Assembly (NCBI GenBank): GCA_029242745.1
Contig: JAQWTI010000034.1
Coordinates: forward strand, 24 to 64,023
Reading direction: 5' to 3'
Length of the DNA: 64,000 nucleotides
DNA from: Acidimicrobiales bacterium
GTDB taxonomy: Bacteria > Actinomycetota > Acidimicrobiia > Acidimicrobiales > MedAcidi-G1
In this document: piece by piece, positions 420 to 19,864 of the stretch
Layout of the letters: each line of letters begins with the position of its first letter
Position numbering within the stretch: position 1 is the first letter of the stretch
Program-made: the position numbers and the translations under genes
Notes under the pieces: model-generated
The model's input: only the letters and a program-made list of their open reading frames with translations
The model's database searches: none
What the model was told of the DNA's origin: nothing

Positions 420-920
420 CTACACCGACTCCGAAGTCAACTTCCAGCCTTCACCAATCTCTCCCATATGGCGAATGGTAAGGCCAATCTTGGTGAACTT
501 TCCGCAACCGTCTTTTACCTTCACCCGCATGGAGTAGGTCCCCCAGCCGATAATCGACTTGGATTCCTCTCCAGCGGTCCACAGGAAATATGCATCAATG
601 TGCACGGTGCCGTCACCGAGCCAACGGGGTGTCATATTCGTGACGAAATGTGACTTACGCGACGGGTCGGCGGCAAACGCCGACTGAAAGAAGTCGACAA
701 CGCTGTCGTAGCCCTCGACAGTCATTTCGCCCGCAGACAGGGCGACCGTGCGGTCGAGTTGTGAAGAGATTGCTGTTAGGTCTTGGGCGTCGACCGCAGC
801 CGCATAGTTGGCTAGGAGAATCCGGGCCGCCTCGGCCCCCTCTAGCGCTGCAAGTCGCTCTTCAATTCCATGATTTGCTTGATTTGTCCGACTACCGCCG
901 GTTTGCCGAAGGATGGCCAT
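420..920 (-). CDS. SnoaL-like / NTF2-superfamily protein
   Basis: 166-aa ORF. ANYAAAVDAQD...HFVTN...IDAYFLW layout is typical of SnoaL_4-like cone-fold proteins. Same strand and tightly spaced with its neighbours. Confidence 0.45.
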   Translation of the reverse strand: MAILRQTGGSRTNQANHGIEERLAALEGAEAARILLANYAAAVDAQDLTAISSQLDRTVALSAGEMTVEGYDSVVDFFQSAFAADPSRKSHFVTNMTPRWLGDGTVHIDAYFLWTAGEESKSIIGWGTYSMRVKVKDGCGKFTKIGLTIRHMGEIGEGWKLTSESV

Positions 921-945: not shown

Positions 946-1785
946 TTAGCGCACAACGTAGCCACCGTCCATCGGAAGGGTGTGGCCGGTGATCCAGCGA
1001 GCATCATCGGACGCTAGGAAGGCGACGACAGCTGCCACGTCTTCAGCGACTGGCCAGCCGGGGATCGGATTCCAATTTTCGCGCTCAGCCCTGAATCCTT
1101 CGGGATCTTCAGAAGTTTCGATGAATGCCTCTACCATCGGGGTGAGTACAGCGGTTGGCGCGATCGCGTTGACCCGAATACCTTGCTTTGCATACTCAAC
1201 TGCCGCTGACCGAGTTATGCCGGTCACACCGGCTTTGGAATACGAGTAGGCCGAGATGTTCAACTGAGCGGTGAGAGCGGCAGTGGACGACGTATTGATG
1301 ATGCTTCCCCCTCCGGACTTCAACATTGCGGTAATCCCGTGCTTGAGCACATAGAAAACTCCGTCGCCGTTCAGAGCGTTGACGGCTCGCCAGTTTTCCT
1401 CGGTGTACTCGTGCAGTGCCTGTTGTTCTCCGGCAATGCCGGCATTGTTGAAAATTATGTCGATCTTCCCAAAGTGCTGCACTGTGGTAGCAATGGCACG
1501 CTCGACTGCTGTGCCATCTGTGACGTCTACTTGAAGACTCAAGGCACCGGGTATAGCCGCAGCGACGCGATCCGCTTCGTCACTGTTGATGTCGACGATG
1601 GCAACATTGGCCCCTTCTTCTGAAAGACGTAGTGCCGTAGCTTCACCAAGACCAGCACCGCCACCGGTAATGAAGGCAACACGGTCTTCGAGCCGGTAGC
1701 ACGCCGCTTGTCGACGCCGAGAATCTCCTGTGCTGCGCATCAGGATCGATGGGTTTATCTGACCAGGTCGATCAGCGCCTGCCAT
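946..1785 (-). CDS. short-chain dehydrogenase/reductase (SDR)
   Basis: TGGGAGLG cofactor motif, NNAG, catalytic YSYSK. The true start may be the internal ATG at 1740. Confidence 0.85.
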   Translation of the reverse strand: MAGADRPGQINPSILMRSTGDSRRRQAACYRLEDRVAFITGGGAGLGEATALRLSEEGANVAIVDINSDEADRVAAAIPGALSLQVDVTDGTAVERAIATTVQHFGKIDIIFNNAGIAGEQQALHEYTEENWRAVNALNGDGVFYVLKHGITAMLKSGGGSIINTSSTAALTAQLNISAYSYSKAGVTGITRSAAVEYAKQGIRVNAIAPTAVLTPMVEAFIETSEDPEGFRAERENWNPIPGWPVAEDVAAVVAFLASDDARWITGHTLPMDGGYVVR

Positions 1786-2001
1786 ATTCTTTACTCCTTC
1801 GATCAGGACTCCGTGGTCAAGAAGCCAGCGCTGTTTGGACTACTAACTGCCGACTATTTGTTGGTTGTATGTCTGATTCTGTCTATCAAGTCACCCTCTG
1901 TGATACAGAATCGCATGTTTGACAAGAAAACAATGTTATAGCATAATCCGGCAAGGCTTGGCCTTTAATTTCTTGCAATCCATCGAGGGGGTAGTACGAC
2001 A

Positions 2002-3657
2002 GTGTTGCGTGCATCGAGAGGCTTCATCCGGATTTTGTTTGTTGCACTACTGGCGGTAGTGGCTGCTAGTTGTGGCAGTGACACTTCTAGTACGAGTAGC
2101 AGTTCGTCGGCTTCTGCTTCGACGGCTGCTCCGGCTACCACGGCTGCGGCTGCTCCGGCTACCACCGCTGCGGCTGCAAGTGATGCTCCTGCAGCTGAGG
2201 CTGAGGCTGAGGCTGCTCCAGCGGTCGAGTATGAGGCACCACCCGAAGACAGCAGTATCGGCTACGCCTGGTCGATTCCGTTGCGGAGCCTTGATCCACA
2301 TGCGACTCCATCAAACTTCGACCCGATCTATATCGGGTTGGCTTATGACACATTGATTGTCCGCGAGTTCGATGGGACGTTCTCACCGATGCTCGCCACG
2401 TCGTGGGAGTTCGTTGAACCAGACGTTCTGGAACTGAAGTTGCGCGAGGGGGTTACGTTCCACGGAGGCCGTGCCTTTGACGCAGAAGCCGTGGTTCTGA
2501 ACTTCGAGCGTGTCACCACAGGGGAGACCTCTACTCGAGGTGGTCCACTGGCCGCTGCCATAGCGTCGGTTGAAGCCGTCGATTCCCTGACGGTCCGAAT
2601 GACGTTGGGTGACGGGCCCGGTGTGATCTTTGGTGCCCTGTCGAGCATGGGTGGCATGATGATTAACCCCGATGCGTTCGATACGGATCTTTCCGTTACC
2701 GCTGACGGCACCGGTCCCTACCGGGTGACTCAGGTTCTAGCCGCCGAGTCGGTCACATTTAAGCGATTCGAGAATACCTGGGCGCCTGAAGACGCACGGG
2801 TCTCGAACCTGAAGATTGTGACCAACAAGGACAGCGCTCAGCGCGTGAACCTTCTTCTCACTGGCGATGTGGATGCCACCAATATTGACACCCACCAGAT
2901 TGAAATGCTGGAGGAGAAGGGATACACCACTCACTTCCGGGTCGGTGACGACGCATTCGTCATGCAACTCAATTGGGAGCGGCTCCCGGATGTCGCGGCT
3001 CGTCAGGCGATTGAGAGTTCGATAGATCGAGCCTTGATCCTTGAGGGGATCCACAAGGGTGTCAGTGAGGCCGGCGGGCAGGTCCAGACCATGGGTGATC
3101 CGGCGTACAACTCCGGTGTCAGTCCTGATCCCGATATCGCGAGGGCAATCCAACTTGCTGCGGATTCGGGTCTTGAGGGGTCGACTCTGAAGTTAATGAC
3201 TGCTGGTGTGCCGAACCTTGAGGCGTATGCCCAGGCGATTCAGCCAATGCTTGAGCAGTTGGGTGTGACGGTAGAGATCACGTTGGTGGAGTGGGGACAG
3301 TTGAACCCTGAGTGGGCCACTGGCAACTACGACCTCTCTCTCATCTACTTCACAGGCAACTCCGACCTTGCGCTCTCCTATGACGCTCTGCTCGGTGCTG
3401 ACTCGGCACTGAACCCTGCTGGCACGGCCCCGGGCGGAATCGATGCCCTAATTGCCGCGACCTTCTCGGAGACAGACCCCGAAGTGCGCACCCAGCAGTT
3501 CAGTGACTTGGCTGCGGCTGTCGACGAAGAGGCCGTTGTAGGGGTGTTGGTGCATCCCGTTCAGCCGATCGTCACGGCACCAGGCATCGAGATCAACGCT
3601 GACCGGCTACGCCTGTTCGGTGGATTCAACCTGCGAGGTATCCACCGAGTCGGCTAG
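2002..3657 (+). CDS. ABC transporter substrate-binding lipoprotein, family 5 (peptide/opine/nickel type)
   Basis: GTG start with GAGGGGG about 10 nt upstream. Signal peptide plus lipobox (LLAVVAASCGS), Ser/Thr/Ala-rich linker, then a family-5 SBP body (SLDPH..., ATSWEFVEPDVLELKLREGVTFHGG). Confidence 0.85.
   Translation: MLRASRGFIRILFVALLAVVAASCGSDTSSTSSSSSASASTAAPATTAAAAPATTAAAASDAPAAEAEAEAAPAVEYEAPPEDSSIGYAWSIPLRSLDPHATPSNFDPIYIGLAYDTLIVREFDGTFSPMLATSWEFVEPDVLELKLREGVTFHGGRAFDAEAVVLNFERVTTGETSTRGGPLAAAIASVEAVDSLTVRMTLGDGPGVIFGALSSMGGMMINPDAFDTDLSVTADGTGPYRVTQVLAAESVTFKRFENTWAPEDARVSNLKIVTNKDSAQRVNLLLTGDVDATNIDTHQIEMLEEKGYTTHFRVGDDAFVMQLNWERLPDVAARQAIESSIDRALILEGIHKGVSEAGGQVQTMGDPAYNSGVSPDPDIARAIQLAADSGLEGSTLKLMTAGVPNLEAYAQAIQPMLEQLGVTVEITLVEWGQLNPEWATGNYDLSLIYFTGNSDLALSYDALLGADSALNPAGTAPGGIDALIAATFSETDPEVRTQQFSDLAAAVDEEAVVGVLVHPVQPIVTAPGIEINADRLRLFGGFNLRGIHRVG
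2124..2171. repeat. 2 x 24-bp direct repeat (1 mismatch) in the low-complexity linker of the SBP, followed by (GCTGAG)x3 at 2194..2211
   Basis: ggctgctccggctaccacggctgc / ggctgctccggctaccaccgctgc read directly. Encodes AAPATTAA twice, in frame. Confidence 0.8.
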
Positions 3658-3721
3658 AAGGGTGTCGTCGAGTGTTTACTAGGCTCGACCGGGTGAGAAA
3701 TCGAAAAGGAGAGATACGTAG

Positions 3722-4021
3722 ATGACTGAAGATAAATATGCAGACTTTCCGACGCTTCTCGTACTTGAGGTGACAGGAATGTTGGATGCGGCCGTAGTGG
3801 TCGACGCCATATTTAAAGCGGCTGATATCTCATTGATAGAATCCCTACGAACAGGGGGAGGCCGAATTGCGATCTGGGCAGGCGGTGAGCTCAGCGCTAT
3901 AAACACGGCAACAGATGCGGCGTACCTCGCGTTGGCCGATTCGAGAGAGGCCCGATCGTGCATCTTCACCCTTCCCAGCGACGTGGTTCGTGAGTTCATG
4001 TCGATGTCGGTGAGCGCGTGA
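3722..4021 (+). CDS. bacterial microcompartment shell protein, BMC-H (single Pfam00936-type domain), copy 1
   Basis: AAAGGAGAG RBS about 10 nt upstream. LLVLEV...VDAIFKAADISL...RTGGGRIAIWAGGELSAINTATDAA matches the canonical BMC-domain order (edge Lys helix, G-G-G pore loop, GDVxAV-like helix). Confidence 0.8.
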   Translation: MTEDKYADFPTLLVLEVTGMLDAAVVVDAIFKAADISLIESLRTGGGRIAIWAGGELSAINTATDAAYLALADSREARSCIFTLPSDVVREFMSMSVSA

Positions 4022-4064
4022 CTAACGTGAAGAGGTACGGAATGACTCAGGAGAGGCGGATGTC

Positions 4065-4376
4065 GTGGCAAGTCAAGTGAGAGCTATCGGAGTTATCGAG
4101 GGTCGTTTGCTCCTTCCGTTGATTAACATTTCTAACGCAATGCGGAAAGTGGCCGATGTGTCCCTTCACCACCTCCAACCAATCGGGGGTGGGATCACTT
4201 TGGCGGTAATCAGCGGAGAGGTTGGCGCTGTGCGAGTTGCGCTTGAGACCGCTGACGCAGCGGCGGTGGAGTATGAAGATTCGACTCGAACCCAAGTCTT
4301 CGCCCATCCTGGTCCGGAGGTGTGGGAGTTGTTCGAGAACCTCGGCGTAAATGTTGATCTCACTCAGAGTCTGTAA
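4065..4376 (+). CDS. bacterial microcompartment shell protein, BMC-H, copy 2
   Basis: GTG start with AGGAG 11 nt upstream. AIGVIEG...SNAMRKVADVSL...PIGGGITLAVISGEVGAVRVALETA. Confidence 0.8.
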   Translation: MASQVRAIGVIEGRLLLPLINISNAMRKVADVSLHHLQPIGGGITLAVISGEVGAVRVALETADAAAVEYEDSTRTQVFAHPGPEVWELFENLGVNVDLTQSL

Positions 4377-4418
4377 TGAATGTCTATTCAATGACGAAAA
4401 ATGCGAGGACGGAAATCG

Positions 4419-4754
4419 ATGTTTGGTAACTCAGTCGCAGTCGGAATTATCGAGATAGACGGCTACGTGGCGATGGCTGCTGCGGTGGAAGCGATGTTCA
4501 AGGCGTCTGACGCCGAGTTCGTCGGATCGCAGCGATCAGGCGGTATCACTTTCTGTGGGGTAGTGCGGGGCGAAATCTCGGCCGTCGAGTATGCGCTCGA
4601 GGCAGGTGTCGAGGCTGCGCGTCAGGCTGATGCCAACGTGAAGACGTCGCTTCTTGTACGACCTGATGGTGACGTCGGAAGTCTTCTCAGCCGTCCTGGA
4701 GCGATGCGGAGAGTTTTCGCTGAAAGTGCCAACGAGACGGATGCCGGAGAGTAG
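4419..4754 (+). CDS. bacterial microcompartment shell protein, BMC-H, copy 3
   Basis: ORF opens at 4401, but the ATG at 4419 has GAGGA 10 nt upstream. AVGIIEIDG...VEAMFKASDAEFVG...RSGGITFCGVVRGEISAVEYALEAG. About 25-aa C-terminal tail. Confidence 0.8.
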   Translation: MFGNSVAVGIIEIDGYVAMAAAVEAMFKASDAEFVGSQRSGGITFCGVVRGEISAVEYALEAGVEAARQADANVKTSLLVRPDGDVGSLLSRPGAMRRVFAESANETDAGE

Positions 4755-4759
4755 TTGGT

Positions 4760-5044
4760 ATGAGGCTCGCACTTGTCAAAGGTATTGCTTGGCCCTCTCG
4801 GAAGATCGACGGAATCGAGGGCACGCGTATCGTGTTGGTTTCTCCGGCTGGTTCAACTGACGAGGGCGAAACTCTGGCAGCTGCAGATCCGTTGCAGGCG
4901 AGCGTGGGTGACTACGTGTTGATCACCGAGGGTCAGGCGGCTGGGGCGGCTCTGCAGCCGGGGAATCCGCGCGCCTACCCACTCGACGCAGCAATCGTGG
5001 CGATCATTCAACCGGACGAGGTCAGGCCTCGTCTATTGGACTGA
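4760..5044 (+). CDS. bacterial microcompartment vertex protein, BMC-P (EutN/CcmL, Pfam03319-type)
   Basis: GGAG 10 nt upstream and 5 nt after the BMC-H3 stop. MRLALVKG...GTRIVLVSP...VGDYVLITEGQAAG...PLDAAIVAII follows the EutN/CcmL consensus layout. Confidence 0.8.
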   Translation: MRLALVKGIAWPSRKIDGIEGTRIVLVSPAGSTDEGETLAAADPLQASVGDYVLITEGQAAGAALQPGNPRAYPLDAAIVAIIQPDEVRPRLLD

Positions 5045-5730
5045 TGGCACAGGTAAGAGTTGCAAGGGGGGGATCACCGGAGCGTCGACCTCATCTTGGC
5101 AGTGCAGTTTCGGCAGCAAACGCTGACGGCGTGCGGCGTGCACTTGTTGCAGGTGGCATGCGGATGCAGTGGAGTAAGACGGGCGGGAGCGATCTAGCGT
5201 CACATCAGCTCTTCGGTCCGGTTCGAGTGCTTAAGCATGCCGTTCATGACTTAGACGCTTGGCTGGAGCAATTCGTTGCTCTCGGTATTGGTCCTTGGTG
5301 GGTTACTCGGGGGCAAGCCCCAGAATCGTTTATCCACCGTGGCAAGCAGAGTGACACCAAGTTCGACTGGGGGCTGACATGGTCAGGTGATGTCATGTAT
5401 GAGCTGATTCAGCCTCTCGACGACCTACCGTCTCCTTACCGTGAGTTTTTGGACGCAGGTCGAGAAGGTCTTCAGCATGGAGCCTTCTATCCGCCCAATT
5501 TTGAAGCCGCAATCGAAGACCTACGTCGATCTGGAAAGACGCCGATCCTCGAAGGCCACTCGGGTGACGCCAAGTTTATGTACTTCGAAGGTCTCGGCTC
5601 GCCTCCCGAACCGATCGAACTTCAGTATCTACCCGAGGACGTGATAGCTAAACACCGTGCCCTGAAAGCGGTCTGCAATAATTGGGACGGCAGCGATCCT
5701 TTCCGTGGCCCACCGCGGAAATGGTGGTGA
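5044..5730 (+). CDS. VOC-family (glyoxalase/bleomycin-resistance/dioxygenase fold) metalloenzyme with N-terminal extension
   Basis: ATG overlaps the BMC-P stop (TGATG at 5042..5046). VOC metal-ligand pattern: VLKHAVHDLD, MYELIQP, GLQHGAFY, PIELQY. About 55 aa precede the VOC core. Confidence 0.7.
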   Translation: MAQVRVARGGSPERRPHLGSAVSAANADGVRRALVAGGMRMQWSKTGGSDLASHQLFGPVRVLKHAVHDLDAWLEQFVALGIGPWWVTRGQAPESFIHRGKQSDTKFDWGLTWSGDVMYELIQPLDDLPSPYREFLDAGREGLQHGAFYPPNFEAAIEDLRRSGKTPILEGHSGDAKFMYFEGLGSPPEPIELQYLPEDVIAKHRALKAVCNNWDGSDPFRGPPRKWW

Positions 5731-6703
5731 TCTCCGAGCAGGGGGTTTTGTCGTTAGTTTGATCCGGGTTGCCTTTGCGCGGCTCCTGGCCGCGATTCCG
5801 ATGATGATTCTCGTATCGCTGATCATCTTCTCTATACCGTATTTCATCCCCGGCGACCCTGCGTTCACGATCGCTGGCCCAAATGCCACGATGGACGACA
5901 TCGCTCGAATTCGATCTGATCTGGGTTTGGACCGCCCCATACCGGGCCAGTACATCGCATGGCTGGGCAATGCAGTCACCCTTGACTTCGGCGACTCCTA
6001 CCTGGTCGGACGAGACGTCCGTACCATGATTGGTGAACGGATGGAGGTGATGCTGTCACTTGCGCTCCTCAGCACCCTGTTTGCCGGCCTGATTGGCATC
6101 CCGCTCGGCATCATTGCTGCATCGAGAATCGGCGGCGTGCGGGATCGTCTCGCAGTCGGATCGGCGTCTATGGGAGTCGCTATACCAAATTATTGGCTTG
6201 CGGCGATCCTTGTGACATACCTCGCGGTCGAGTGGGGTTGGTTTCCTGCGGCAGGCTATGTGCGCATAGGCGATGACCCAGGCCAATGGCTTTGGCATTT
6301 GATTTTGCCGACAATCGCACTCGGGGCGATCTCCGCTGCTGAGGTCACCCGGCAGACGCGCGGCATGATGGCACAAACCATGAACCTCGATTACATCCGC
6401 ACGGCGCGGATGAAGGGGTTGCCGCCTCGAATAGTAATCGGCAAGCACGCGCTTAAGAACGCAGCGATACCTGTCATCACAGCCCTCGGCCTGCAACTGA
6501 CCATTGTTCTTGGAGGGTCGGTAATTGTTGAACAGATTTTTGGGATGCCTGGCCTTGGAGAATTGGCGATCACTGCAGTTCTGGGTCGTGACATCCCAGT
6601 AATTCAGGGAATCGTTCTGCTGACTACTGTGGTGGCGGTCAGCACCAACCTTCTTGTAGACATCGTTACGTCGCACTTGGATCCACGAGTGGTCATCTCA
6701 TGA
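5705..6703 (+). CDS. ABC transporter permease (DppB/OppB-like)
   Basis: N-terminal LIRVAFARLLAAIPMMILVS and a multi-TM body with the EAA-like loop (DYIRTARMKGL). The likely real start is the TTG at 5759, where homologs begin; the ORF opens at GTG 5705. Confidence 0.85.
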   Translation: MAHRGNGGDLRAGGFVVSLIRVAFARLLAAIPMMILVSLIIFSIPYFIPGDPAFTIAGPNATMDDIARIRSDLGLDRPIPGQYIAWLGNAVTLDFGDSYLVGRDVRTMIGERMEVMLSLALLSTLFAGLIGIPLGIIAASRIGGVRDRLAVGSASMGVAIPNYWLAAILVTYLAVEWGWFPAAGYVRIGDDPGQWLWHLILPTIALGAISAAEVTRQTRGMMAQTMNLDYIRTARMKGLPPRIVIGKHALKNAAIPVITALGLQLTIVLGGSVIVEQIFGMPGLGELAITAVLGRDIPVIQGIVLLTTVVAVSTNLLVDIVTSHLDPRVVIS

Positions 6704-7623
6704 CGGTGGTTCCTTCAGAGGGTGCAGCCGGGTCAACTACCGGAGAGGCGACATTCCTAAGGAAACGATATGAGTCTCCTTCGAGACGATTTGCTCGGCG
6801 CTTACTCTCTCAAAAGGTCGCGACAGCATCAGGGGTGATTCTGATTCTCGTTGTCCTGTCTGCGATATTTGCCCCACTTCTTGCCCCGCTTGATCCCAAC
6901 AAGACCGATCTCCGAAACACCCTTTTGCCCCCCGGCTCTGCTGATTTCCTACTAGGCACCGACTATCTCGGGAGAGACGTTCTCAGCCGACTGTTGTTTG
7001 CTGGGCGAGTGTCGTTAGTCGCAGCGGTCCAGGCAGTCAGTGTTGGCCTGATTCTCGGGGTCGCCCCCGCCTTGGTTGCCGGGTATGTCGGGCGGTGGTG
7101 GGACTGGCTACTTATGAGATTTACGGACGCGCTGTTGGCCTTCCCTCCACTGATCCTCGCTATTACGGTTATAGGGATACTCGGTACCGGTCTGACCAAC
7201 GCGATGATTGGAGTCGGGATCATCTTTGCTCCAAGATTTGCTCGGATCACCCGGTCCGCCGTGTTAAGCGTCCGAGAAGAGACTTTCGTCGAAGCCGCTA
7301 AAAGTATGGGACTCAGTCAACCCCGAATCATCTGGCGACACGTGCTTCCGCACCTCCTTTCGCCATTGGTCGTGACTGCCACAGTGTTGGCAGGAATGGC
7401 GATGATTATCGAGGCTGGTTTGAGTTTCATCGGTCTCGGAGTCCAAGTCCCCCAAGCGAGCTGGGGATCAATGCTGTCGACGGCATATCGGTTTATCAGG
7501 GTTTCACCAACACTAATTCTTTGGCCAGGTTTGGCCATCATGATCACCGTGCTCAGCGTCAACCTTTTGGGTGATGGCATTCGTGACGCTCTCGGCCGTG
7601 AAGTGCGAGACATGTCCTCATGA
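6700..7623 (+). CDS. ABC transporter permease (DppC/OppC-like)
   Basis: ATGA overlap with the preceding permease. LGTDYLGRDVLSR motif and FVEAAKSMGLS EAA loop. Confidence 0.85.
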   Translation: MTVVPSEGAAGSTTGEATFLRKRYESPSRRFARRLLSQKVATASGVILILVVLSAIFAPLLAPLDPNKTDLRNTLLPPGSADFLLGTDYLGRDVLSRLLFAGRVSLVAAVQAVSVGLILGVAPALVAGYVGRWWDWLLMRFTDALLAFPPLILAITVIGILGTGLTNAMIGVGIIFAPRFARITRSAVLSVREETFVEAAKSMGLSQPRIIWRHVLPHLLSPLVVTATVLAGMAMIIEAGLSFIGLGVQVPQASWGSMLSTAYRFIRVSPTLILWPGLAIMITVLSVNLLGDGIRDALGREVRDMSS

Positions 7624-8624
7624 CCGTCCAGGACTCTGCCACTACAGCGCTCAGGGTCAAAGAGCTGTGCGTAGATGTCGCCACACCGGAGGGCTGGGCT
7701 ACCGTCGTCGAGGACGTGAGCCTCGCTGTTGATGTAGGTGAGATCCACGGTCTAGTGGGGGAGTCGGGAAGCGGAAAGTCGCTTACGGCCATGGCCATCA
7801 TGGGCCTGATCACCCATTCCCAGAGTGCTCGAGTTACCGGGGGTGAGGTGCTGCTTGGTGACGTCGATCTGCTGAAACTGTCCAATCGAGACCTCCGCAG
7901 ACACCAAGGCAAGGACCTTGCCATGGTGTTTCAAGAACCAATGACGAGTCTGAACCCAGCATTCACCGTTGCTGATCAGATCGGAGAGTCCATCCGCTAC
8001 CACCTCGGCGCATCGCGAAAAGAGGCCAGGGAACGCTCGATAGAACTTTTAGAGGAGGTCGGTATCGCCGACGCTCGTCGGCGCTGCAACGACTACCCAC
8101 ATCAGTTCTCTGGCGGAATGCGTCAACGGGTGATGCTGGCCGTGGCCCTCGCCTGTGAACCGAGACTTCTAATCGCTGATGAACCAACGACTGCGCTCGA
8201 TGTCACAGTTCAGGCACAGATGCTCGAACTTATTCGGTCACTAGTAGAACGTCATGGGATGGCGGTAATTTTTATTACCCACGATCTCGGCGTAATAGCG
8301 GAGATATGTGACCGAACGACAGTCTTTTACGCTGGCCAAGTGATCGAGAGCGGTCTCGTAGGAGAGGTCATTAAGGGGCCGCGTCATCCATATACCGAGG
8401 GGTTGTTGCGCTCGGTTCCCGCTGACGACGATCTTCCTTTGTGGTGGATCGACGGATCACCGCCCCTCCCGGGACAAGTGTCATCAGGGTGCAGGTTCAG
8501 CCCACGTTGCGAGTACAGCAAGAATGAGTGCGACACCCACGCTGTTCCGTTACGCCTGAGTGCTGATGGGCGAGCAATTAGATGCGCGCTCGCTGATGAT
8601 CTCTCTCTGAACGGGAGAGACTGA
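7620..8624 (+). CDS. ABC transporter ATP-binding protein (DppD/OppD-like)
   Basis: ATGA overlap. Walker A GESGSGKS, signature FSGGMRQR, Walker B LLIADEPTTALD, C-terminal oligopeptide-type Cys motif (GCRFSPRC). Confidence 0.9.
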   Translation: MTVQDSATTALRVKELCVDVATPEGWATVVEDVSLAVDVGEIHGLVGESGSGKSLTAMAIMGLITHSQSARVTGGEVLLGDVDLLKLSNRDLRRHQGKDLAMVFQEPMTSLNPAFTVADQIGESIRYHLGASRKEARERSIELLEEVGIADARRRCNDYPHQFSGGMRQRVMLAVALACEPRLLIADEPTTALDVTVQAQMLELIRSLVERHGMAVIFITHDLGVIAEICDRTTVFYAGQVIESGLVGEVIKGPRHPYTEGLLRSVPADDDLPLWWIDGSPPLPGQVSSGCRFSPRCEYSKNECDTHAVPLRLSADGRAIRCALADDLSLNGRD

Positions 8625-8626
8625 CG

Positions 8627-9679
8627 TTGACCCAGGTCCTCGAAGTTTCTGAAATGAGTGTTTCGTTTCCCAGACGCTCCGGCCTGTTGGGGAAGTCGCA
8701 ACCGTTACGCGTCGTGGAGAACGTATCGTTTGAGGTGGGTAAGGGCGAAGTGGTGGCCCTTGTTGGCGAGTCTGGCTCGGGAAAGTCCACCATTGCTCGG
8801 GCTGTTCTGCGTTTGTTGCCAATCGACAATGGGCGGATAACTCTCGCAGATGTGGATATCACGACGCTGTCACAACGAGCCCTGCGGCCGCACCGTCGGA
8901 ACGCACAGCTTGTTTTCCAGGACCCCTATTCATCGCTCGATCCATCGATGACGGCTATTGAGATTGTCGAAGAACCCCTTCGTGGGTTTGCTATGAGTCG
9001 TGAGGAGCGCCTGCGCTCCGCCCAAGAGTTGCTTGCCAGCGTCGGCCTCGCCGGGGTTGAAGGCCGCTACCCCTATGAATTCTCAGGTGGTCAACGACAA
9101 CGGATCGCTATTGCTAGAGCCCTTGCTCCCCGGCCGGCGTTGATCATCTGCGATGAACCTGTATCCGCTCTGGATCTGTCAACACAGAACCAGATCATCT
9201 CGCTACTTGACTCTCTTCGGCAGAGTTTGGGAGTTTCTTATCTATTCATTAGCCATGATCTATCCGTCGTGCGTCGTATCGCTGATCGAGTTTTGGTGAT
9301 GTACGCCGGCGAGATTGTGGAAGAGGGACCGACGGAGCGAGTGTTTCGCGATCCTGTCCACCCCTACACCCTGGCTCTTCTTTCTGCCGTACCTGCAGTT
9401 GTAGGTGACCGGTCAAAGCATGCCAAGCGAATTGTCTTGGAAGGCGACCTTCCCGTGCCCGGAGCGCCTCCACCGGGATGCCGATTCCATACACGGTGCC
9501 CGTTTGCTATGGATGTCTGTCGCTCGGAGGTTCCTGCATGGACAGAGTTTGATCACGGCGTATCGGGAAGGTGTCATCTGCACACCTCCGGGTCAACACT
9601 AGGTTTCTCCGGTCTAACTCAGTTTGCAGAAGATGCGATGGCATCTACGGACAGAGACCGAGGTCAGACATCTATTTAA
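8627..9679 (+). CDS. ABC transporter ATP-binding protein (DppF/OppF-like)
   Basis: Starts 2 nt after the previous stop. GESGSGKST, FSGGQRQR, LIICDEPVSALD, GCRFHTRCP. Confidence 0.9.
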   Translation: MTQVLEVSEMSVSFPRRSGLLGKSQPLRVVENVSFEVGKGEVVALVGESGSGKSTIARAVLRLLPIDNGRITLADVDITTLSQRALRPHRRNAQLVFQDPYSSLDPSMTAIEIVEEPLRGFAMSREERLRSAQELLASVGLAGVEGRYPYEFSGGQRQRIAIARALAPRPALIICDEPVSALDLSTQNQIISLLDSLRQSLGVSYLFISHDLSVVRRIADRVLVMYAGEIVEEGPTERVFRDPVHPYTLALLSAVPAVVGDRSKHAKRIVLEGDLPVPGAPPPGCRFHTRCPFAMDVCRSEVPAWTEFDHGVSGRCHLHTSGSTLGFSGLTQFAEDAMASTDRDRGQTSI

Positions 9680-9705
9680 CCGGTGAGACTAAGGATGGAT
9701 TTGTA

Positions 9706-10110
9706 GTGGTACCGGCTGAGTTGTCGGACCTTTTGGACCGGCCGCTTGTAGCGGCTCTGGCCACCGAACGCCCTGACGGCACGCTGCAATGCAATCCAAT
9801 GTGGTTCCGCTTCGATGGAACTGAGATAAAGATGAGCCACACATCAACGAGGCAGAAGATTCGCAACTGGGATGCAAACACGGCTGTGAGCTTGTGCATC
9901 ACGGATCCTGCGAACACTTTTCGATATGTGGAGGTTCGTGGTTTCGTAACTGGTTTGGCGAGCGACCTTGATGCACAATTCCACCGAGAGCTTCGTGTCC
10001 GGTACGGCATGGACGCAACCAACGTTCCTGATGCCGCTGAACGTGTGGTCGTCACTATCCGGATTACCTACATCGGTGGTCGGGAGATGGCAGATCAGAC
10101 GAAAACATGA
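9706..10110 (+). CDS. PPOX-class (pyridoxamine-5'-phosphate-oxidase-fold) FMN/F420-dependent enzyme
   Basis: ORF opens at 9571 inside the ATPase gene. The GTG at 9706 has AAGGA about 10 nt upstream. LLDRPLVAALATERPDGTLQCNPMWF...VSLCITDP...YVEVRG is typical of split-barrel PPOX/F420 family proteins. Confidence 0.65.
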   Translation: MVPAELSDLLDRPLVAALATERPDGTLQCNPMWFRFDGTEIKMSHTSTRQKIRNWDANTAVSLCITDPANTFRYVEVRGFVTGLASDLDAQFHRELRVRYGMDATNVPDAAERVVVTIRITYIGGREMADQTKT

Positions 10111-10462
10111 CAAGAGTGGTGACTTGCGTCAAGTGCGTCGTGAATGAGACGGCACGCTCGCCAGAGTGATGTTCGGATTCGGACAAATGACTGCATGCCG
10201 TCATTGATTCAGCCCTGATCCGACTTTTACGGGGACCACTGTCCTCCTAGCCGCTGTCCGGTTTTACTGGTGGGCGCCTACTGGCCGCAGCGGTAAGAGT
10301 AAGGGCGCTGTTTGCGGTGGCGGAGAGCCGGCGGACAATAGATCTAGTATCGACTTGTCGAAATCGTTAAAATCTAATGTCGATCAGTATCGAGTTCATT
10401 TAGGAGCACGTCGTATGTGCTCACTGTTCCATCGGCGATGCGACGACAGCAGCGTGCCAGTG

Positions 10463-11680
10463 CTAGTGCGGTTTTGATGCGATGACGCCGGAGAGTTCGA
10501 GAGCGTTCAGTTCCTCATCGGACATTCCGAGAAGGCCGCCAAGTACAGCTGCATTGTGTTCGCCGAGAGCCGCCGGCTGATAATTGTCGATGGGCAGTGG
10601 GTCGGTGCTCTTGATGGGAAAGCCGGGGATTGTGACGTGTCCGGCAAGCGGGTCGTCGACAATGCGCACCATCTTGCGTTCGACGAAATGGGGATGTACA
10701 ACGATCTGGCTGGGGGTGAGAACGGGTCCAGCAGGGACGCGTGCCGATGTCAGTGCGTCGAGTACCTCATTATCTGTCTCGAAAGTCGCCATCCAGGTTT
10801 CGATGATCTCAGTCAGTTCATCGCGATGTTTAATGCGGTCAGGATTGGACCTGAACCGGTCGTCTTCTCCTAGTTCCGGTCTCCCTAACGCGGACCACAG
10901 ATTCGCCATCTGCGCTTCGGTGGACAAGATGACGATCCATCCGACGGGACCACGGAATGCGCCTGCTGGTGACAGGGTTGGAAAGTGTTGGCCCTGGCGA
11001 ATCGGCTCGGGCCCATCAGGGTCCATCGAGACGGTGTGAATGGACATGTCGTGAAAGTGCAACAGGGCATCAACCATGGAGATATCGAGGTGGGTGCCTC
11101 GGCTGGTTCGTTCCCTGTGGTACAGCGCATGACCGATAGCGCCAAAGGCATGCGCACCAGCGTTAGTGTCGGCGACTCCGATCCCGGCGATGGTGGGTGG
11201 CCCATCGGGATCACCGGTCATGTGCATGAGGCCACTCATGGCCTGTGCCACCAAGTCGAAGCAAGGACGCTCAGAGAATGGCCCAGTCTGTCCAAACCCG
11301 GAGATCGACACCATAATCAGGTCCGGTTTGATTCTCCGAAGATCCTCGTACCCGAGGCCTTTATGCGCCATCACCCCTGGGCTGAAGTTCTCGACCAACA
11401 CGTCGATGCGTGCGATCAGGGCCTTGATGATTGCGATCCCGTCATCGGTGTTGAGGTCCAGACACACGCTGCGCTTACCACGATTCTGCTGAATGTGCGC
11501 GCCTGCTCGACGATTGATGCGTGGGCGGTTTGACCGATTCGGATCTCCGTAGGGGGGTTGCTCGATCTTGATTACATCGGCGCCCAACTCCACCAACATG
11601 CGGGTGCAGGCAGGTCCTGCTAGATACCGGGTGAGGTCGAGCACGGTAACGCCCTCCAACCATCTCCGATCGTCGCTCAC
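10463..11680 (-). CDS. family III CoA-transferase (CaiB/BaiF type)
   Basis: GVTVLDLTRYLAGPACTRMLVELGADVIKIE N-terminus. The GTG start overlaps the upstream ACAD stop (GTGA at 11680..11677). The ORF track extends it to 11791. Confidence 0.85.
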   Translation of the reverse strand: MSDDRRWLEGVTVLDLTRYLAGPACTRMLVELGADVIKIEQPPYGDPNRSNRPRINRRAGAHIQQNRGKRSVCLDLNTDDGIAIIKALIARIDVLVENFSPGVMAHKGLGYEDLRRIKPDLIMVSISGFGQTGPFSERPCFDLVAQAMSGLMHMTGDPDGPPTIAGIGVADTNAGAHAFGAIGHALYHRERTSRGTHLDISMVDALLHFHDMSIHTVSMDPDGPEPIRQGQHFPTLSPAGAFRGPVGWIVILSTEAQMANLWSALGRPELGEDDRFRSNPDRIKHRDELTEIIETWMATFETDNEVLDALTSARVPAGPVLTPSQIVVHPHFVERKMVRIVDDPLAGHVTIPGFPIKSTDPLPIDNYQPAALGEHNAAVLGGLLGMSDEELNALELSGVIASKPH

Positions 11681-12804
11681 GCTGCTGCCCCTGTTCGAGG
11701 TTCGCGTGGAAGCTTTAAGACTCGCTCTCCGAGGATATTGCGCATGATTTCTGACATTCCGCCCTGAATTGTGTACGCCGACGCGTAGCAAATAGCGTTG
11801 GGCACGTCATCGCCAACCATGGCAGCTGGTCCGAGCACCTCTGCTGCGAACCGTGCTACCCGTTGCTCGTGCTCTGTACAGAATAGTTTAGTGCCGGCGC
11901 TGAAGTCGGTTGGGCCCTGCTGGAGAGCGCCTCTGTAGACCATGAGACGCCCCAGATGGTACCCAGACTCAATAGTTGCGATCTCTTGACGCACCCTCGG
12001 GTCAGAGCGGTCGGCATGCTCGAGGGCAAGGTCGTAGAGCGGTCGATTCGATACAAGCCGGTCGATACCTCCTCGTTCGTGGGCCAACTGGACCATGGTT
12101 TGTTTGAAGGCGGCACCTTCGACACCAACGAGATTTTCGACCGGCACCTCAACATCGGTGAAAAATACTTCGCAAAAGTGCTTGTTGCTAACCATGTCCA
12201 CGACAGGGCGCACTTCGATCCCAGCGAGGTCCATGGGAACGATTAGCTCACTCACCCCCTCATGAGGTGGCCCGGAGGTATCCGTACGACAGATCAAATA
12301 GCAGTATGTCGCTTCTGCTGCGAGACTCGTCCAGATCTTCTGGCCGTTAACTACAAAAACCGAACCCACACGTACCGCAGAGGTACTCAGTGTGGCCAAG
12401 TCGGATCCGGCGTCGGGTTCGCTCATACCGATGCACCACGTCGCTTCGCCCGAGAGTATCCCCGGAAGGAATTCTGTCTTCTGATCGTTGGTGCCATAGG
12501 TGTAAATAGCGGGGCCCATCTGGCGATCGGCTATCCAACTCGCCGCAATCGGCGCCCCTGCGCTGATCATCTCCTCGGCCATGATGACGCGTTCGATGCC
12601 TGGTCGATTGCCACCTCCGACCTCCCGGGGCCAGGTCATACCGATCCAACCTTCTGACGCCAATATCCGGGCGAAGTCCTTCGAGTAGCCGTTGATCCAA
12701 GAGTCGTGCCACTTGCCATATTCGACGACGCCGTGTTGGGCGATTTCTCGGGCTCGGTGTTGGAGATCCCTCCATTCGGGAGGCATTGCGAACTCGAGAC
12801 TCAT
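11677..12804 (-). CDS. acyl-CoA dehydrogenase
   Basis: GMSEPDAGSD and C-terminal YTIQGGMSEIMRNILGE motifs. 4-nt overlap with the upstream amidohydrolase gene. Confidence 0.85.
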   Translation of the reverse strand: MSLEFAMPPEWRDLQHRAREIAQHGVVEYGKWHDSWINGYSKDFARILASEGWIGMTWPREVGGGNRPGIERVIMAEEMISAGAPIAASWIADRQMGPAIYTYGTNDQKTEFLPGILSGEATWCIGMSEPDAGSDLATLSTSAVRVGSVFVVNGQKIWTSLAAEATYCYLICRTDTSGPPHEGVSELIVPMDLAGIEVRPVVDMVSNKHFCEVFFTDVEVPVENLVGVEGAAFKQTMVQLAHERGGIDRLVSNRPLYDLALEHADRSDPRVRQEIATIESGYHLGRLMVYRGALQQGPTDFSAGTKLFCTEHEQRVARFAAEVLGPAAMVGDDVPNAICYASAYTIQGGMSEIMRNILGERVLKLPREPRTGAAA

Positions 12805-13829: not shown

Positions 13830-13854
13830 CGAATCTAGTGCGACATAATACTAT

Positions 13855-19860: not shown

Positions 19861-19864
19861 GCCG

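What the first reader, a model, noticed from the sequence alone, without database searches (positions are those of the whole stretch)
2002..10110. BMC shell genes embedded inside a family-5 ABC importer operon, with no canonical metabolosome or carboxysome core
The co-directional gene order is: SBP (2002), BMC-H x3, BMC-P, VOC enzyme, permease, permease, ATPase, ATPase, PPOX-class enzyme (ends 10110).

Junctions are 65, 43, 42 (or 24) and 5 nt, then TGATG, a short gap or overlap, ATGA, ATGA, 2 nt and 26 nt. This looks like a single transcription unit opposite a divergent SDR gene.

Known BMC loci are built around signature enzymes: aldehyde dehydrogenase, phosphotransacylase, alcohol dehydrogenase, diol/ethanolamine/glycyl-radical lyases, or RuBisCO with carbonic anhydrase. 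None of these is in or next to this operon.

To my knowledge, splitting a peptide/opine-type uptake system with a shell module is not a described architecture. It implies the imported substrate, or a reactive product of it, is handled inside a compartment.

An alternative is a satellite shell locus whose enzymatic core lies elsewhere in the genome.
Basis: partly seen in the sequence, partly recalled or inferred. Interest (0 to 1): 0.9.

Follow-up and report, generated by a model that had tools for sequence, protein, structure and literature searches.

The report
Uncatalogued microcompartment locus inside ABC importer
Marine Acidimicrobiia carry a conserved, apparently undescribed bacterial microcompartment locus whose four shell genes and one methylmalonyl-CoA-epimerase-like enzyme sit inside a nutrient-importer operon, with none of the usual aldehyde- or CO2-processing core enzymes nearby.

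Summary
Window 2002-10110 encodes, co-directionally and tightly spaced: a family-5 binding protein, three diverged BMC-H proteins, one BMC-P, a VOC enzyme, two permeases, two ATPases and an F420-type PPOX protein.

This 11-gene order is invariant in at least 8 metagenomic lineages, with VOC identity down to 53% and BMC-P down to 37%. All that can be placed are marine Acidimicrobiia.

No aldehyde dehydrogenase, phosphotransacylase, Fe-alcohol dehydrogenase, radical lyase, RuBisCO or carbonic anhydrase was found in about 55 ORFs across the 64 kb window, nor in related loci. I found no matching type in the 2021 BMC catalogue or the searched literature.

New findings:
- The VOC is structurally closest to methylmalonyl-CoA epimerases.
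- The VOC, and the SDR and SnoaL-like enzymes of the divergent operon, carry disordered Arg/Ser/Thr/Gly-rich N-terminal extensions. Their nearest shell-less homologues lack them.
- A shell-less version of the same CoA-linked pathway exists with a different ABC importer.

Best reading: a new "BMC of unknown function" type that encapsulates VOC, SDR and SnoaL steps of an imported organic-acid pathway. Substrate and chemistry remain inferred.

The parts
93..413 (-). NIPSNAP-family protein. Third gene of the divergent SDR-SnoaL-NIPSNAP-(CoA ligase) operon; the ligase is cut off by the window start.
   Evidence: Pfam PF07978, 50 bits. Orthologues sit beside the shell operon in L001, L002, L005, L012 and L015.
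420..920 (-). SnoaL_4 (NTF2-fold) enzyme with a clade-specific 17-aa N-terminal peptide, MAILRQTGGSRTNQANH. Candidate cargo.
   Evidence: Pfam PF13577. An N-terminal M-x-I-[ILF]-R-x-(R)-[TS]-G-G motif is shared with L012, L001, L002 and L015. Of 168 relatives among 1.84 billion representatives, only 2 of the 150 listed align from residue 1-2; the rest start at about residue 14-20. The shell-less orthologue in L060 lacks the peptide.
946..1785 (-). SDR oxidoreductase with a clade-specific N-terminal extension of about 28 aa (SILMRSTGD motif). Candidate cargo.
   Evidence: Pfam and NCBIfam alignments start at residue 31-36. Twelve hits at 69-95% identity follow; ten of them, 277-302 aa long, carry [ST]-S-I-x-[MV]-R-S-T-x-D or a looser form of it, and two shorter gene calls do not show it. 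The next homologues at 63-65% identity are 250-252 aa and lack the extension. AF2 gives pLDDT below 50 for residues 1-25.
1786..2001 (.). Divergent intergenic control region. Sigma-70-like promoter at 1919-1947 (+) and palindrome TCTGTGATACAGA at 1897-1909.
2002..3657 (+). Family-5 (Opp/Dpp/Nik-type) substrate-binding lipoprotein. Signal/lipobox ...VVAASC, then a Ser/Thr/Ala/Pro-rich linker.
   Evidence: PF00496, 181 bits. Best NCBIfam and PDB relatives are NikA, opine (AgaA, AccA) and GsiB binders, all far below the family cut-offs.
3722..4021 (+). BMC-H paralogue H1, the most diverged of the three.
   Evidence: PF00936, 35 bits. Forms an orthologous group across loci; interface Lys (PduA K26) and pore Gly are conserved. 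Best PDB match is 48 bits or less.
4065..4376 (+). BMC-H paralogue H2.
   Evidence: PF00936, 51 bits. Orthologous group shown.
4401..4754 (+). BMC-H paralogue H3. The likely true start is 4419.
   Evidence: PF00936, 55 bits. A Shine-Dalgarno GAGGA precedes the ATG at 4419, and orthologues start there. The closest solved natural shell proteins are HO-5815 and RMM MSM0272, at about 50 bits.
4760..5044 (+). BMC-P (pentamer/vertex protein).
   Evidence: PF03319, 61 bits. Isolated clade: 17 clusters at 119-161 bits, then the next hit at 57 bits. Identical to NCBI MDG2428260.1 from an Acidimicrobiales MAG.
5044..5730 (+). VOC enzyme, methylmalonyl-CoA-epimerase-like. It has a disordered N-terminal extension of about 55 aa and a clade-specific C-terminal GPPRxWW. 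It is the only enzyme in the shell block and the prime candidate cargo or signature enzyme.
   Evidence: PF13669 matches residues 66-171. Alignment A1 shows that shell-less homologues lack the N-extension and the C-terminal tail. M1, G9 and G38 are invariant in the extension. AF2 gives pLDDT below 50 for residues 1-51 and a fold over 58-212. Top Foldseek hits are 3gm5 and methylmalonyl-CoA epimerases (sequence profile).
5705..6703 (+). ABC permease 1 (DppB/OppB-like). The start may be near 5747.
   Evidence: PF00528 + PF19300.
6700..7623 (+). ABC permease 2 (DppC/OppC-like).
   Evidence: PF00528 + PF12911. ATGA overlap with the preceding gene.
7620..8624 (+). ABC ATPase 1 (DppD-like).
   Evidence: PF00005 + PF08352.
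8627..9679 (+). ABC ATPase 2 (DppF-like).
   Evidence: PF00005 + PF08352.
9706..10110 (+). F420-dependent PPOX-class oxidoreductase (the longest ORF starts at 9571). It belongs to the pathway rather than the transporter.
   Evidence: TIGR03618, 96 bits against a cut-off of 79. The orthologue in the shell-less cluster L060 sits beside the NIPSNAP and CoA-ligase genes.
10463..11791 (-). Family III CoA-transferase. Flanking pathway gene in the window lineage.
   Evidence: PF02515, 364 bits. The best NCBIfam match, succinyl-CoA:mesaconate CoA-transferase at 271 bits, is below its cut-off. Conserved in L008 and L011.
11677..13829 (-). Acyl-CoA dehydrogenase (11677-12804) and Amidohydro_2 (12801-13829). 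Flanking pathway genes.
13855..15752 (+). Acyl-CoA dehydrogenase ACAD2 (13855-15000) and a second SDR (15000-15752). This pair is conserved beside the locus in all long contigs and in the shell-less cluster.

Best explanation
This is the main locus of a previously uncatalogued bacterial microcompartment type, a 'BMC of unknown function' in the catalogue's terms. It is found in marine Acidimicrobiia.

The 11-gene operon is probably transcribed from one promoter in the divergent intergenic region. It encodes three things:
1. A lipoprotein-anchored family-5 ABC importer.
2. A minimal shell of three BMC-H paralogues and one BMC-P, with no BMC-T.
3. A methylmalonyl-CoA-epimerase-like VOC enzyme.

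Proposed mechanism:
- The importer brings in a small polar organic, probably carboxylated, compound. This is inferred.
- Inside the shell the compound is processed by the VOC, together with the SDR and the SnoaL-like (NTF2-fold) enzyme of the divergent operon. This is also inferred.
- These three enzymes would be recruited through short, disordered, positively charged Arg/Ser/Thr/Gly-rich N-terminal peptides containing a hydrophobic-Arg-Ser/Thr motif. The VOC may also use its C-terminal GPPRxWW. These peptides are not the canonical amphipathic-helix encapsulation peptide.
- The extensions themselves and their absence from shell-less homologues are shown. Their targeting role is inferred.
- The shell would confine a reactive carbonyl-type intermediate made by the SDR, and possibly a cofactor pool.
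- The product then leaves the shell. It is activated by the neighbouring AMP-dependent CoA ligase or family-III CoA-transferase, and degraded by the flanking acyl-CoA dehydrogenases, enoyl-CoA hydratase and 3-hydroxyacyl-CoA dehydrogenase.

The shell module appears to be an add-on to an older pathway that also exists without any shell.
For: Gene content:
- The domains and tight or overlapping junctions are confirmed.
- A promoter-like site lies upstream, and there is no excess of internal terminator-like sites.

Conservation:
- The order SBP-H1-H2-H3-P-VOC-permease-permease-ATPase-ATPase-PPOX is identical in the window, L007, L011/L008, L012-14, L001, L002, L015, L005, L009, L018 and L019. The flanking genes are rearranged.
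- Three orthologous BMC-H groups are each conserved across the loci. The hexamer-interface Lys is invariant.

Isolation of the shell clade:
- BMC-P hits drop from 119 bits or more to 57 bits, and the first outgroup is a glycyl-radical locus.

No canonical core:
- None in about 55 window ORFs, nor in the related loci.

Candidate cargo:
- The VOC N-extension and C-terminal tail occur only in the shell-linked clade. The N-extension is predicted to be disordered.
- The SDR extension with its conserved motif occurs only in shell-linked orthologues. Homologues at 63-65% identity lack it.
- The SnoaL peptide is likewise clade-specific.
- The extensions have net positive charge, are 40-63% G/S/T/A/P, and show no strong amphipathic helix.

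Natural comparator:
- L060 carries orthologues of SDR, SnoaL, NIPSNAP, PPOX, CoA ligase, ACAD2, SDR2, 3HCDH and GntR at 48-64% identity.
- It has no shell, no 228-aa VOC, no extensions, and a CUT2 importer instead.

VOC fold:
- It is nearest to methylmalonyl-CoA epimerases. This fits the CoA-centred neighbourhood.

Source and literature:
- The source is an Acidimicrobiales or Acidimicrobiaceae MAG, and relatives occur in Tara and JGI marine samples.
- No matching type was found in the catalogue or in the papers searched.
Against: - No compartment has been seen; everything here is sequence inference.
- None of the three BMC-H paralogues keeps the full PRPH edge motif, and the Arg equivalent to PduA R79 is not conserved. 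Canonical tiling is therefore not assured.
- There is no BMC-T.
- The N-terminal peptides are not amphipathic helices.
- Cross-family similarity of their motifs is only suggestive. A motif matrix built from one family ranks the other families' sites 12th or about 20th-33rd of 67,514, which is roughly p = 0.02-0.05 per protein.
- The motif-bearing SDR and SnoaL genes are outside the shell operon.
- The substrate is unknown. The binding protein is at most 33% identical to anything in the plasmid collection and lies far below every NCBIfam cut-off.
- If the VOC acts on acyl-CoA, the shell would have to pass or recycle CoA, and no phosphotransacylase-like recycler is present.
- The full genomes could not be scanned for a second BMC locus.
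Confidence: 0.6

Rival explanations
1. Satellite or auxiliary shell locus. The shell genes here supplement a canonical metabolosome encoded elsewhere in the genome, and the VOC and ABC genes are merely ancillary.
For: The catalogue reports that satellite loci are common. No enzyme here carries a canonical encapsulation peptide.
Against: - The locus contains both BMC-H and BMC-P, which is the catalogue's criterion for a main locus.
- The BMC-P clade is isolated, and every readable contig of it shows this architecture.
- Three adjacent enzymes have extensions specific to the shell-linked clade.
- No Acidimicrobiia appear in the held catalogue trees.
Confidence: 0.12
2. The shell proteins are repurposed and do not form a closed organelle. 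For example, they could form sheets, tubes or a scaffold that organises pathway enzymes near the importer.
For: All three BMC-H paralogues are highly diverged (35-55 bits) and lack a conserved PRPH/R79 edge motif. There is no BMC-T. The genes sit physically inside a membrane-transporter operon.
Against: A BMC-P vertex protein, needed only to close polyhedra, is strictly conserved. The interface Lys is invariant. From my own knowledge rather than anything tested here, shells made of BMC-H and BMC-P without BMC-T are known, for example in GRM2 and in synthetic minimal shells.
Confidence: 0.12
3. The importer takes up a metal chelate (Ni or Co with a metallophore) that serves the metal-dependent VOC, rather than the catabolic substrate.
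For: The best NCBIfam and PDB relatives of the binding protein are NikA and staphylopine/metallophore binders. VOC enzymes are metal dependent (established knowledge of the superfamily).
Against: - All those matches are far below the family cut-offs (105 bits against 393-800).
- In the shell-less cluster, a sugar-type CUT2 importer occupies the equivalent position. This argues that the transporter carries the pathway substrate.
- GntR/FCD regulators, which typically sense organic acids, accompany the locus.
Confidence: 0.06
4. The adjacency is fortuitous: a mobile shell cassette dropped into a transporter operon, with no functional link.
For: None specific. Shell loci are known to move horizontally.
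Against: - The order is invariant in at least 8 lineages with protein identities down to 37-53%, while the flanks rearrange.
- Genes overlap or are tightly spaced.
- No mobile-element genes are present in the locus.
Confidence: 0.03

Closest known systems
BUF-class loci of the Sutter et al. 2021 BMC catalogue (BMCs lacking an aldehyde dehydrogenase), especially the actinobacterial BUF2
   Same: A main locus with BMC-H and BMC-P, no pfam00171 aldehyde dehydrogenase, no detectable canonical encapsulation peptide, few enzymes between the shell genes, and an actinobacterial host (for the BUF2 description).
   Different: BUF2 has a methyltransferase-like protein, a 260-aa CDxxDxCSCGC protein and a BMC-T(dp), and occurs in Micromonosporales. 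This locus has none of those. It has three BMC-H, a VOC enzyme and a complete ABC importer interleaved with the shell genes, and it occurs in Acidimicrobiia.
Canonical metabolosomes (PDU, EUT, GRM, RMM, ARO)
   Same: Shell genes are clustered and co-transcribed with catabolic enzymes, a transporter and (in relatives) a regulator. The likely logic is also shared: confining a reactive intermediate of an imported substrate, with CoA-thioester chemistry downstream.
   Different: There is no signature lyase, aldehyde dehydrogenase, phosphotransacylase or Fe-alcohol dehydrogenase. Candidate cargo are VOC, SDR and NTF2-fold enzymes. The candidate targeting peptides are disordered and Arg/Ser/Thr-rich rather than amphipathic helices.
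Opp/Dpp/Nik-type (family 5) ABC importers
   Same: A full component set in the usual order: SBP_bac_5, BPD_transp_1 twice (one with OppC_N), and ABC_tran + oligo_HPY twice.
   Different: Five unrelated genes (four shell genes and the VOC) are inserted between the binding-protein gene and the permease genes, and this insertion is conserved across lineages. The binding protein is remote from all characterised members.
Methylmalonyl-CoA epimerase and PDB 3gm5 (VOC superfamily, Glyoxalase_4)
   Same: The predicted fold and best structural matches agree (Foldseek E = 6e-10 to 1e-5). His and Glu residues that may bind the metal (H145, E192, E120/E141; not checked against the model) are conserved.
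   Different: Identity is only 15-24%. The protein has a 55-aa disordered N-extension and a GPPRxWW tail. The NCBIfam epimerase model scores 15.5 bits against a cut-off of 115, so it is not an equivalog.
Shell-less orthologous pathway cluster (L060, JGI Ga0645763_0000040)
   Same: It carries orthologues of SDR, SnoaL_4, NIPSNAP, PPOX, CoA ligase, ACAD2, SDR2, 3HCDH and GntR (48-64% identity), plus ECH, a small glyoxalase and Amidohydro_2 by Pfam family. An ABC importer is adjacent.
   Different: It has no shell genes, no 228-aa VOC and no N-terminal extensions on SDR or SnoaL. Its importer is of the CUT2 type (Peripla_BP_4 / BPD_transp_2) rather than family 5.

Membership tests
Bacterial microcompartment main locus (Sutter et al. 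2021 definition) | Contiguous genes include at least one BMC-H (PF00936) and at least one BMC-P (PF03319). | tested here: met
   Three PF00936 hits (35, 51 and 55 bits) and one PF03319 hit (61 bits), all above the gathering cut-offs. The definition is quoted.
Bacterial microcompartment main locus (Sutter et al. 2021 definition) | Shell proteins keep the conserved tiling residues: the interface Lys (PduA K26) and the PRPH/R79 edge motif, in at least one 'basal' BMC-H. | tested here: inconclusive
   The Lys is invariant in all 15 sequences. The Arg equivalent to R79 is present in window H3 but is not conserved in orthologues, and is absent from H1.
Bacterial microcompartment main locus (Sutter et al. 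2021 definition) | Cargo enzymes carry an amphipathic-helix encapsulation peptide on a flexible linker. | tested here: not met
   No strong amphipathic helix in the VOC, SDR or SnoaL extensions. AF2 predicts them to be disordered. Non-canonical clade-specific peptides are present instead. The catalogue notes that BUF2 and BUF3 also lack detectable encapsulation peptides.
Bacterial microcompartment main locus (Sutter et al. 2021 definition) | A closed polyhedral protein shell forms in vivo. | not testable with these tools
   Needs expression and electron microscopy.
Canonical metabolosome | Acylating aldehyde dehydrogenase (PF00171) in or near the locus. | tested here: not met
   Absent from about 55 ORFs across the window and from the gene tables of L001, L002, L005 and L009.
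Canonical metabolosome | Phosphotransacylase (PduL PF06130 or Pta PF01515) and a Fe-alcohol dehydrogenase (PF00465) for cofactor recycling. | tested here: not met
   The same searches found none. The only alcohol dehydrogenase is a Zn-type MDR at 33269-34288, 23 kb away and absent from the related loci examined.
Canonical metabolosome | A signature enzyme: diol or ethanolamine lyase, glycyl-radical enzyme, class II aldolase, aminotransferase and so on. | tested here: not met
   None found.
Carboxysome | RuBisCO and carbonic anhydrase with CsoS2 or CcmM/N. | tested here: not met
   None in the window. Shell proteins score 12-50 bits against carboxysome equivalog models whose cut-offs are 89-270 bits.
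Satellite BMC locus | Shell genes distal from a main locus, lacking the BMC-H plus BMC-P pair, with the core elsewhere in the same genome. | tested here: inconclusive
   Both BMC-H and BMC-P are present, so by definition this is a main locus.
Catalogued actinobacterial types (BUF2, ARO, RMM) | BUF2: methyltransferase, CDxxDxCSCGC protein and BMC-T(dp). ARO: pfam02900 dioxygenases and an aldehyde dehydrogenase. RMM: class-III aminotransferase, APH kinase and an aldehyde dehydrogenase. | tested here: not met
   None of these domains is in the locus. PF00496, PF13669, PF00528 and PF01243 do not appear in the catalogue's held supplementary tables, although some of those files were truncated.
Family-5 Opp/Dpp/Nik ABC importer | SBP_bac_5 binding protein, two BPD_transp_1 permeases, and two ATPases with the oligo_HPY C-terminal region. 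| tested here: met
Family-5 Opp/Dpp/Nik ABC importer | Assignment to a substrate-defined subfamily (NikA, DppA, OppA, GsiB, CntA). | tested here: not met
   Best scores are 28-105 bits against cut-offs of 393-1005.
Methylmalonyl-CoA epimerase | Passes the equivalog model TIGR03081; epimerase activity on (2R/2S)-methylmalonyl-CoA. | tested here: not met
   15.5 bits against a cut-off of 115. Only the fold is similar. Activity cannot be tested here.

The most novel reading that the evidence does not exclude
This would be a new class of bacterial organelle in abundant marine Actinobacteria.

- A minimal shell of BMC-H and BMC-P is genetically welded to an ABC importer.
- It encloses non-aldehyde chemistry: SDR, NTF2-fold and methylmalonyl-CoA-epimerase-like VOC enzymes.
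- It recruits cargo through a new kind of signal. This is a short, disordered, cationic hydrophobic-Arg-Ser/Thr peptide (possibly with a C-terminal GPPRxWW on the VOC), not an amphipathic helix.
- The shell-less sister pathway shows that encapsulation was added to a pre-existing route. This gives a natural before-and-after pair for asking why a pathway becomes compartmentalised.
Probability: 0.35. Interest if true: 0.85.

Novelty: new variant of a known kind. Interest (0 to 1): 0.7.

Why it matters
BMC function is normally read from a signature enzyme and an aldehyde dehydrogenase. This locus has neither, so it points to encapsulated chemistry outside the known repertoire.

- It would extend BMCs to Acidimicrobiia, a widespread marine group that did not turn up in the parts of the 2021 catalogue I could search.
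- Interleaving shell genes with a complete importer ties uptake and encapsulation into one conserved expression unit. That link is usually only inferred.
- The clade-specific, non-helical terminal peptides on three unrelated enzymes are a directly testable candidate for a new cargo-targeting signal, with possible use in engineering.
- The shell-less orthologous pathway gives a rare natural control for asking what selective problem the shell solves.

Tried and rejected
- **Exact look-ups.** Looking up the window BMC-P and its identical NCBI copy in the contig index found nothing. The source was identified only through cluster membership.
- **Cross-family motif tests.** A matrix built from the VOC motif ranks an SDR site 12th. 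A matrix built from the SDR motif ranks VOC sites about 20th-33rd of 67,514 positions. This is suggestive, not significant, so the claim of a 'shared motif' is kept as a hypothesis.
- **PPOX N-terminus as a further tagged protein.** Rejected, because start codons are inconsistent between lineages.
- **CoA ligase, NIPSNAP, small glyoxalase, ACAD2 and SDR2.** None has a clade-specific extension.
- **Substrate inference from the binding protein.** PDB, NCBIfam and plasmid tblastn give only remote hits of 33% identity or less.
- **Substrate inference from neighbours.** NCBIfam best hits all fall below their cut-offs. They include cyclohexanecarboxyl-CoA, pimeloyl-CoA and acryloyl-CoA-type dehydrogenases, mesaconate CoA-transferase and a lactonase-like Amidohydro_2. 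DMSP/MMPA, carnitine, alicyclic-acid and lignin-monomer ideas were considered, and none is supported specifically.
- **A cultured homologue.** The Micromonospora SDR homologue (61% identity) is not in a comparable cluster, so no cultured model was found.
- **Literature.** Searches for microcompartments in Acidimicrobiia, or together with glyoxalase, SnoaL, ABC transporter or binding-protein terms, found nothing relevant.

Full report
**Observation**

- SBP_bac_5, 2002-3657.
- Three PF00936 BMC-H genes: 3722-4021, 4065-4376 and 4401-4754 (35, 51 and 55 bits; cut-off 24.5).
- A PF03319 BMC-P gene, 4760-5044 (61 bits).
- A Glyoxalase_4 VOC protein, 5044-5730.
- Two BPD_transp_1 permeases, 5705-6703 and 6700-7623.
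- Two ABC_tran + oligo_HPY ATPases, 7620-8624 and 8627-9679.
- A TIGR03618 F420-dependent PPOX protein, ending at 10110.

Junctions read from the DNA are 64, 43, 24 (or 42), and 5 nt, then TGATG, an overlap or short gap, ATGA, ATGA, 2 and 26 nt. H1, H2, H3 (at 4419) and P are preceded by Shine-Dalgarno-like sequences.

A near-consensus sigma-70-like promoter (11 of 12) lies at 1919-1947, in the 216-bp region shared with the divergent SDR gene. Terminator-like sites are no more frequent than in shuffled sequence. A single transcription unit is therefore plausible but not demonstrated.

**No canonical core**

About 55 ORFs covering the whole 64 kb window were scanned. None of the following was found: PF00171 aldehyde dehydrogenase, PduL or Pta, Fe-alcohol dehydrogenase, B12 lyase, glycyl-radical lyase, aldolase signature enzyme, RuBisCO or carbonic anhydrase.

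The immediate neighbours are:
- Upstream and divergent: SDR (946-1785), SnoaL_4 (420-920), NIPSNAP (93-413), and a CoA ligase cut off by the window edge.
- Downstream: a family-III CoA-transferase, two acyl-CoA dehydrogenases, an Amidohydro_2 protein and a second SDR (10463-15752).

**Conservation**

A homologue search with the VOC found 14 full-length relatives at 53-87% identity. Every contig long enough shows the same 11-gene block. A BMC-P profile search gave 17 clusters at 119-161 bits, followed by a gap to 57 bits. The first outgroup is a glycyl-radical locus.

Scans of genome and metagenome collections added more loci. A tblastn synteny table shows the order SBP-H1-H2-H3-P-VOC-permease-permease-ATPase-ATPase-PPOX is invariant. 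It holds in the window, L007, L008/L011, L012-14, L001, L002, L015, L005, L009, L018 and L019. That is at least 8 lineages, with BMC-P identity as low as 37%. The flanking genes change order and orientation.

The three BMC-H genes form three separate orthologous groups.

The window's BMC-P is identical to NCBI MDG2428260.1 from an Acidimicrobiales MAG, on a contig of 65,026 bp. Cluster members occur in Tara, JGI and ENA samples. L007 is an Acidimicrobiaceae MAG. L008 is binned as Dehalococcoidia, but its proteins are 87-95% identical to the window's, so it is probably misbinned.

**Shell proteins**

All three BMC-H keep the hexamer-interface lysine and the pore glycine. None keeps a conserved PRPH/R79 edge motif. 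They are remote from every solved natural shell protein, at about 52 bits or less. There is no BMC-T.

From my own knowledge, natural and synthetic shells made only of BMC-H and BMC-P exist (for example GRM2). A closed shell is therefore feasible, but it is unproven here.

**The VOC enzyme**

The Pfam domain covers only residues 66-171. The shell-linked clade has a 45-55-aa N-terminal extension and a C-terminal GPPRxWW. Homologues outside the clade lack the conserved N-terminal motifs and the GPPRxWW tail, including the 48%-identical homologue in a shell-less context, L006. M1, G9 and G38 are invariant within the extension, so it is translated.

AlphaFold2 gives mean pLDDT 66.8. It predicts residues 1-51 to be disordered and a VOC fold over 58-212. 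Foldseek and a sequence profile both place the protein nearest to PDB 3gm5 and to methylmalonyl-CoA epimerases. It fails the epimerase equivalog model (15.5 bits against a cut-off of 115). It works like an enolate-stabilising metallo-VOC that may act on acyl-CoA. Its membership of the epimerase family is not established.

**Candidate cargo signals**

The SDR and SnoaL_4 proteins of the divergent operon also have N-terminal extensions.

For the SDR:
- The top 12 hits are 69-95% identical. Ten of them are 277-302 aa and carry the motif [ST]-S-I-x-[MV]-R-S-T-x-D or a looser form of it. Two are shorter gene calls (263-264 aa) that do not show it.
- The next homologues, at 63-65% identity, are 250-252 aa and start exactly where the extension ends.
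- AF2 predicts residues 1-25 to be disordered.

For SnoaL:
- The N-terminus M-x-I-[ILF]-R-x-(R)-[TS]-G-G is shared by five of the six aligned lineages.
- Of 168 relatives among 1.84 billion representatives, only 2 of the 150 listed align from residue 1-2.

The VOC extension contains related elements: M-x-x-[VI]-R-V-x-G-G at the N-terminus, then one or two copies of G-G-x-x-[FIL]-R-[SL]-[ST].

All the extensions are cationic, rich in G/S/T/A/P, and lack a strong amphipathic helix.

Position-matrix tests across families were only suggestive. The robust statement is this: three unrelated enzymes encoded in or beside the shell operon carry clade-specific disordered N-terminal peptides. That the peptides share one motif and act as targeting signals is an inference, which I put at about 50%.

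CoA ligase, NIPSNAP, the small glyoxalase, ACAD2 and SDR2 have no such extensions.

**A shell-less comparator**

The closest extension-free SDR with a long contig (P0195) lies in cluster L060. That cluster contains:
- Orthologues of SDR, SnoaL_4, NIPSNAP, PPOX, CoA ligase, ACAD2, SDR2, 3-hydroxyacyl-CoA dehydrogenase and GntR/FCD (48-64% identity).
- An enoyl-CoA hydratase, a small glyoxalase and an Amidohydro_2 protein of the same Pfam families, more distant or not compared.
- A thiolase.

It has no shell genes, no 228-aa VOC and no extensions. An adjacent CUT2-type ABC importer replaces the family-5 one.

Two conclusions follow. The shell, the VOC and the peptides are a package added to an older CoA-linked catabolic pathway. 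And PPOX belongs to that pathway rather than to the transporter.

**What it probably does**

The following facts bear on function:
- The regulators that accompany the locus in L001, L015 and L005 are GntR/FCD proteins, typically organic-acid sensors.
- The binding protein is nearest, though remotely, to binders of small carboxylated ligands such as NikA, opine binders and GsiB.
- The flanks encode a CoA ligase or CoA-transferase, acyl-CoA dehydrogenases, a hydratase and a 3-hydroxyacyl-CoA dehydrogenase.

I therefore propose this sequence of events:
1. A small polar organic (acid) substrate is imported.
2. It is oxidised and isomerised inside the shell by the SDR, the SnoaL-like enzyme and the VOC, through a reactive carbonyl intermediate.
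3. The product is activated to a CoA thioester and degraded by beta-oxidation-like steps outside the shell.

The substrate cannot be named from these data. The specific chemistry has low confidence, about 20%. The rest of the window carries many oxygenases, CoA-transferases and dehydrogenases. This fits a generalist degrader of dissolved organic matter, but that is context only.

**Comparison with known systems**

In the Sutter et al. 2021 catalogue (PMC8217296), a main locus needs BMC-H plus BMC-P, and types without an aldehyde dehydrogenase are called BUF. None of the described BUF, ARO or RMM types matches. The Pfam families that characterise this locus are absent from the held supplementary tables, and no Acidimicrobiia appear there. 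Some supplementary files were truncated.

Literature searches found nothing on such a locus.

I classify it as a new variant of a known kind: a genuine BMC locus with a new enzyme complement, a new gene architecture and possibly a new targeting signal.

**Rivals**

- A satellite locus with a core elsewhere is disfavoured but not excluded, because whole genomes could not be scanned.
- A non-organelle scaffold role is possible, given the diverged edge motifs.
- A role for the importer in metal-chelate uptake is unlikely, given the comparator cluster.
- Chance adjacency is disfavoured by the conserved synteny.

**Verdict**

The locus is a conserved, apparently undescribed BMC type. Interest is 0.7.

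Noticed in passing
window 16031-33213: There are four adenosine-deaminase-family paralogues (16031-17092, 22555-23586, 23692-24720, 24819-25961). Clustered with them are a GcvT-like aminomethyltransferase (17151-18407, minus strand), three VanA/Rieske oxygenase genes (18769-19860; 19838-21625, a Rieske + Fer2 + DmmA-like reductase fusion; 30824-31816) and a GST. A Bmp/PnrA nucleoside-type ABC importer (26045-30805) and a 2OG-Fe oxygenase complete the cluster. It looks like an island for methylated purine or nucleoside demethylation and deamination.
   Followed up: no
L001 5457-5467; L002 about 6700-6733; L015 6732-6747; L005 6766-6777; window 1897-1909: In lineages that carry a GntR/FCD gene after PPOX, the region upstream of the binding-protein gene shares a palindrome, ATCATG-N2-4-CATGAT, usually followed by TAGCCTAAG. 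This is a likely operator. The window lineage lacks the adjacent GntR gene and has a different palindrome, TCTGTGATACAGA, upstream of the -35 box.
   Followed up: partly
L012 1899-5024: One metagenomic relative carries two tandem copies of the family-5 binding-protein gene ahead of the shell genes. A near-identical contig, L013, has only one.
   Followed up: no
L008 (CAUZRH010000062.1): This contig's proteins are 87-95% identical to those of this Acidimicrobiales locus, yet it is binned in a 'Dehalococcoidia bacterium' MAG. This is probably a binning error rather than horizontal transfer.
   Followed up: no
L060 (JGI Ga0645763_0000040, locus coordinates 4209-19992): This is a shell-less orthologous pathway cluster: 3HCDH, ACAD, Amidohydro_2, GntR, thiolase, ECH, SDR, SnoaL_4, NIPSNAP, PPOX, CoA ligase and glyoxalase, then a CUT2 ABC importer, SDR and ACAD. 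The pathway itself appears to be uncharacterised.
   Followed up: partly
window 38640-39695, 44191-46467, 50621-52219, 52465-55902: Several other genes lie in the same 64 kb: a luciferase-like monooxygenase, the large subunit of a molybdenum hydroxylase, an FMO/Baeyer-Villiger-type monooxygenase, and a CysD/CysNC/APS-kinase sulfate-activation set with a second stand-alone APS kinase.
   Followed up: no
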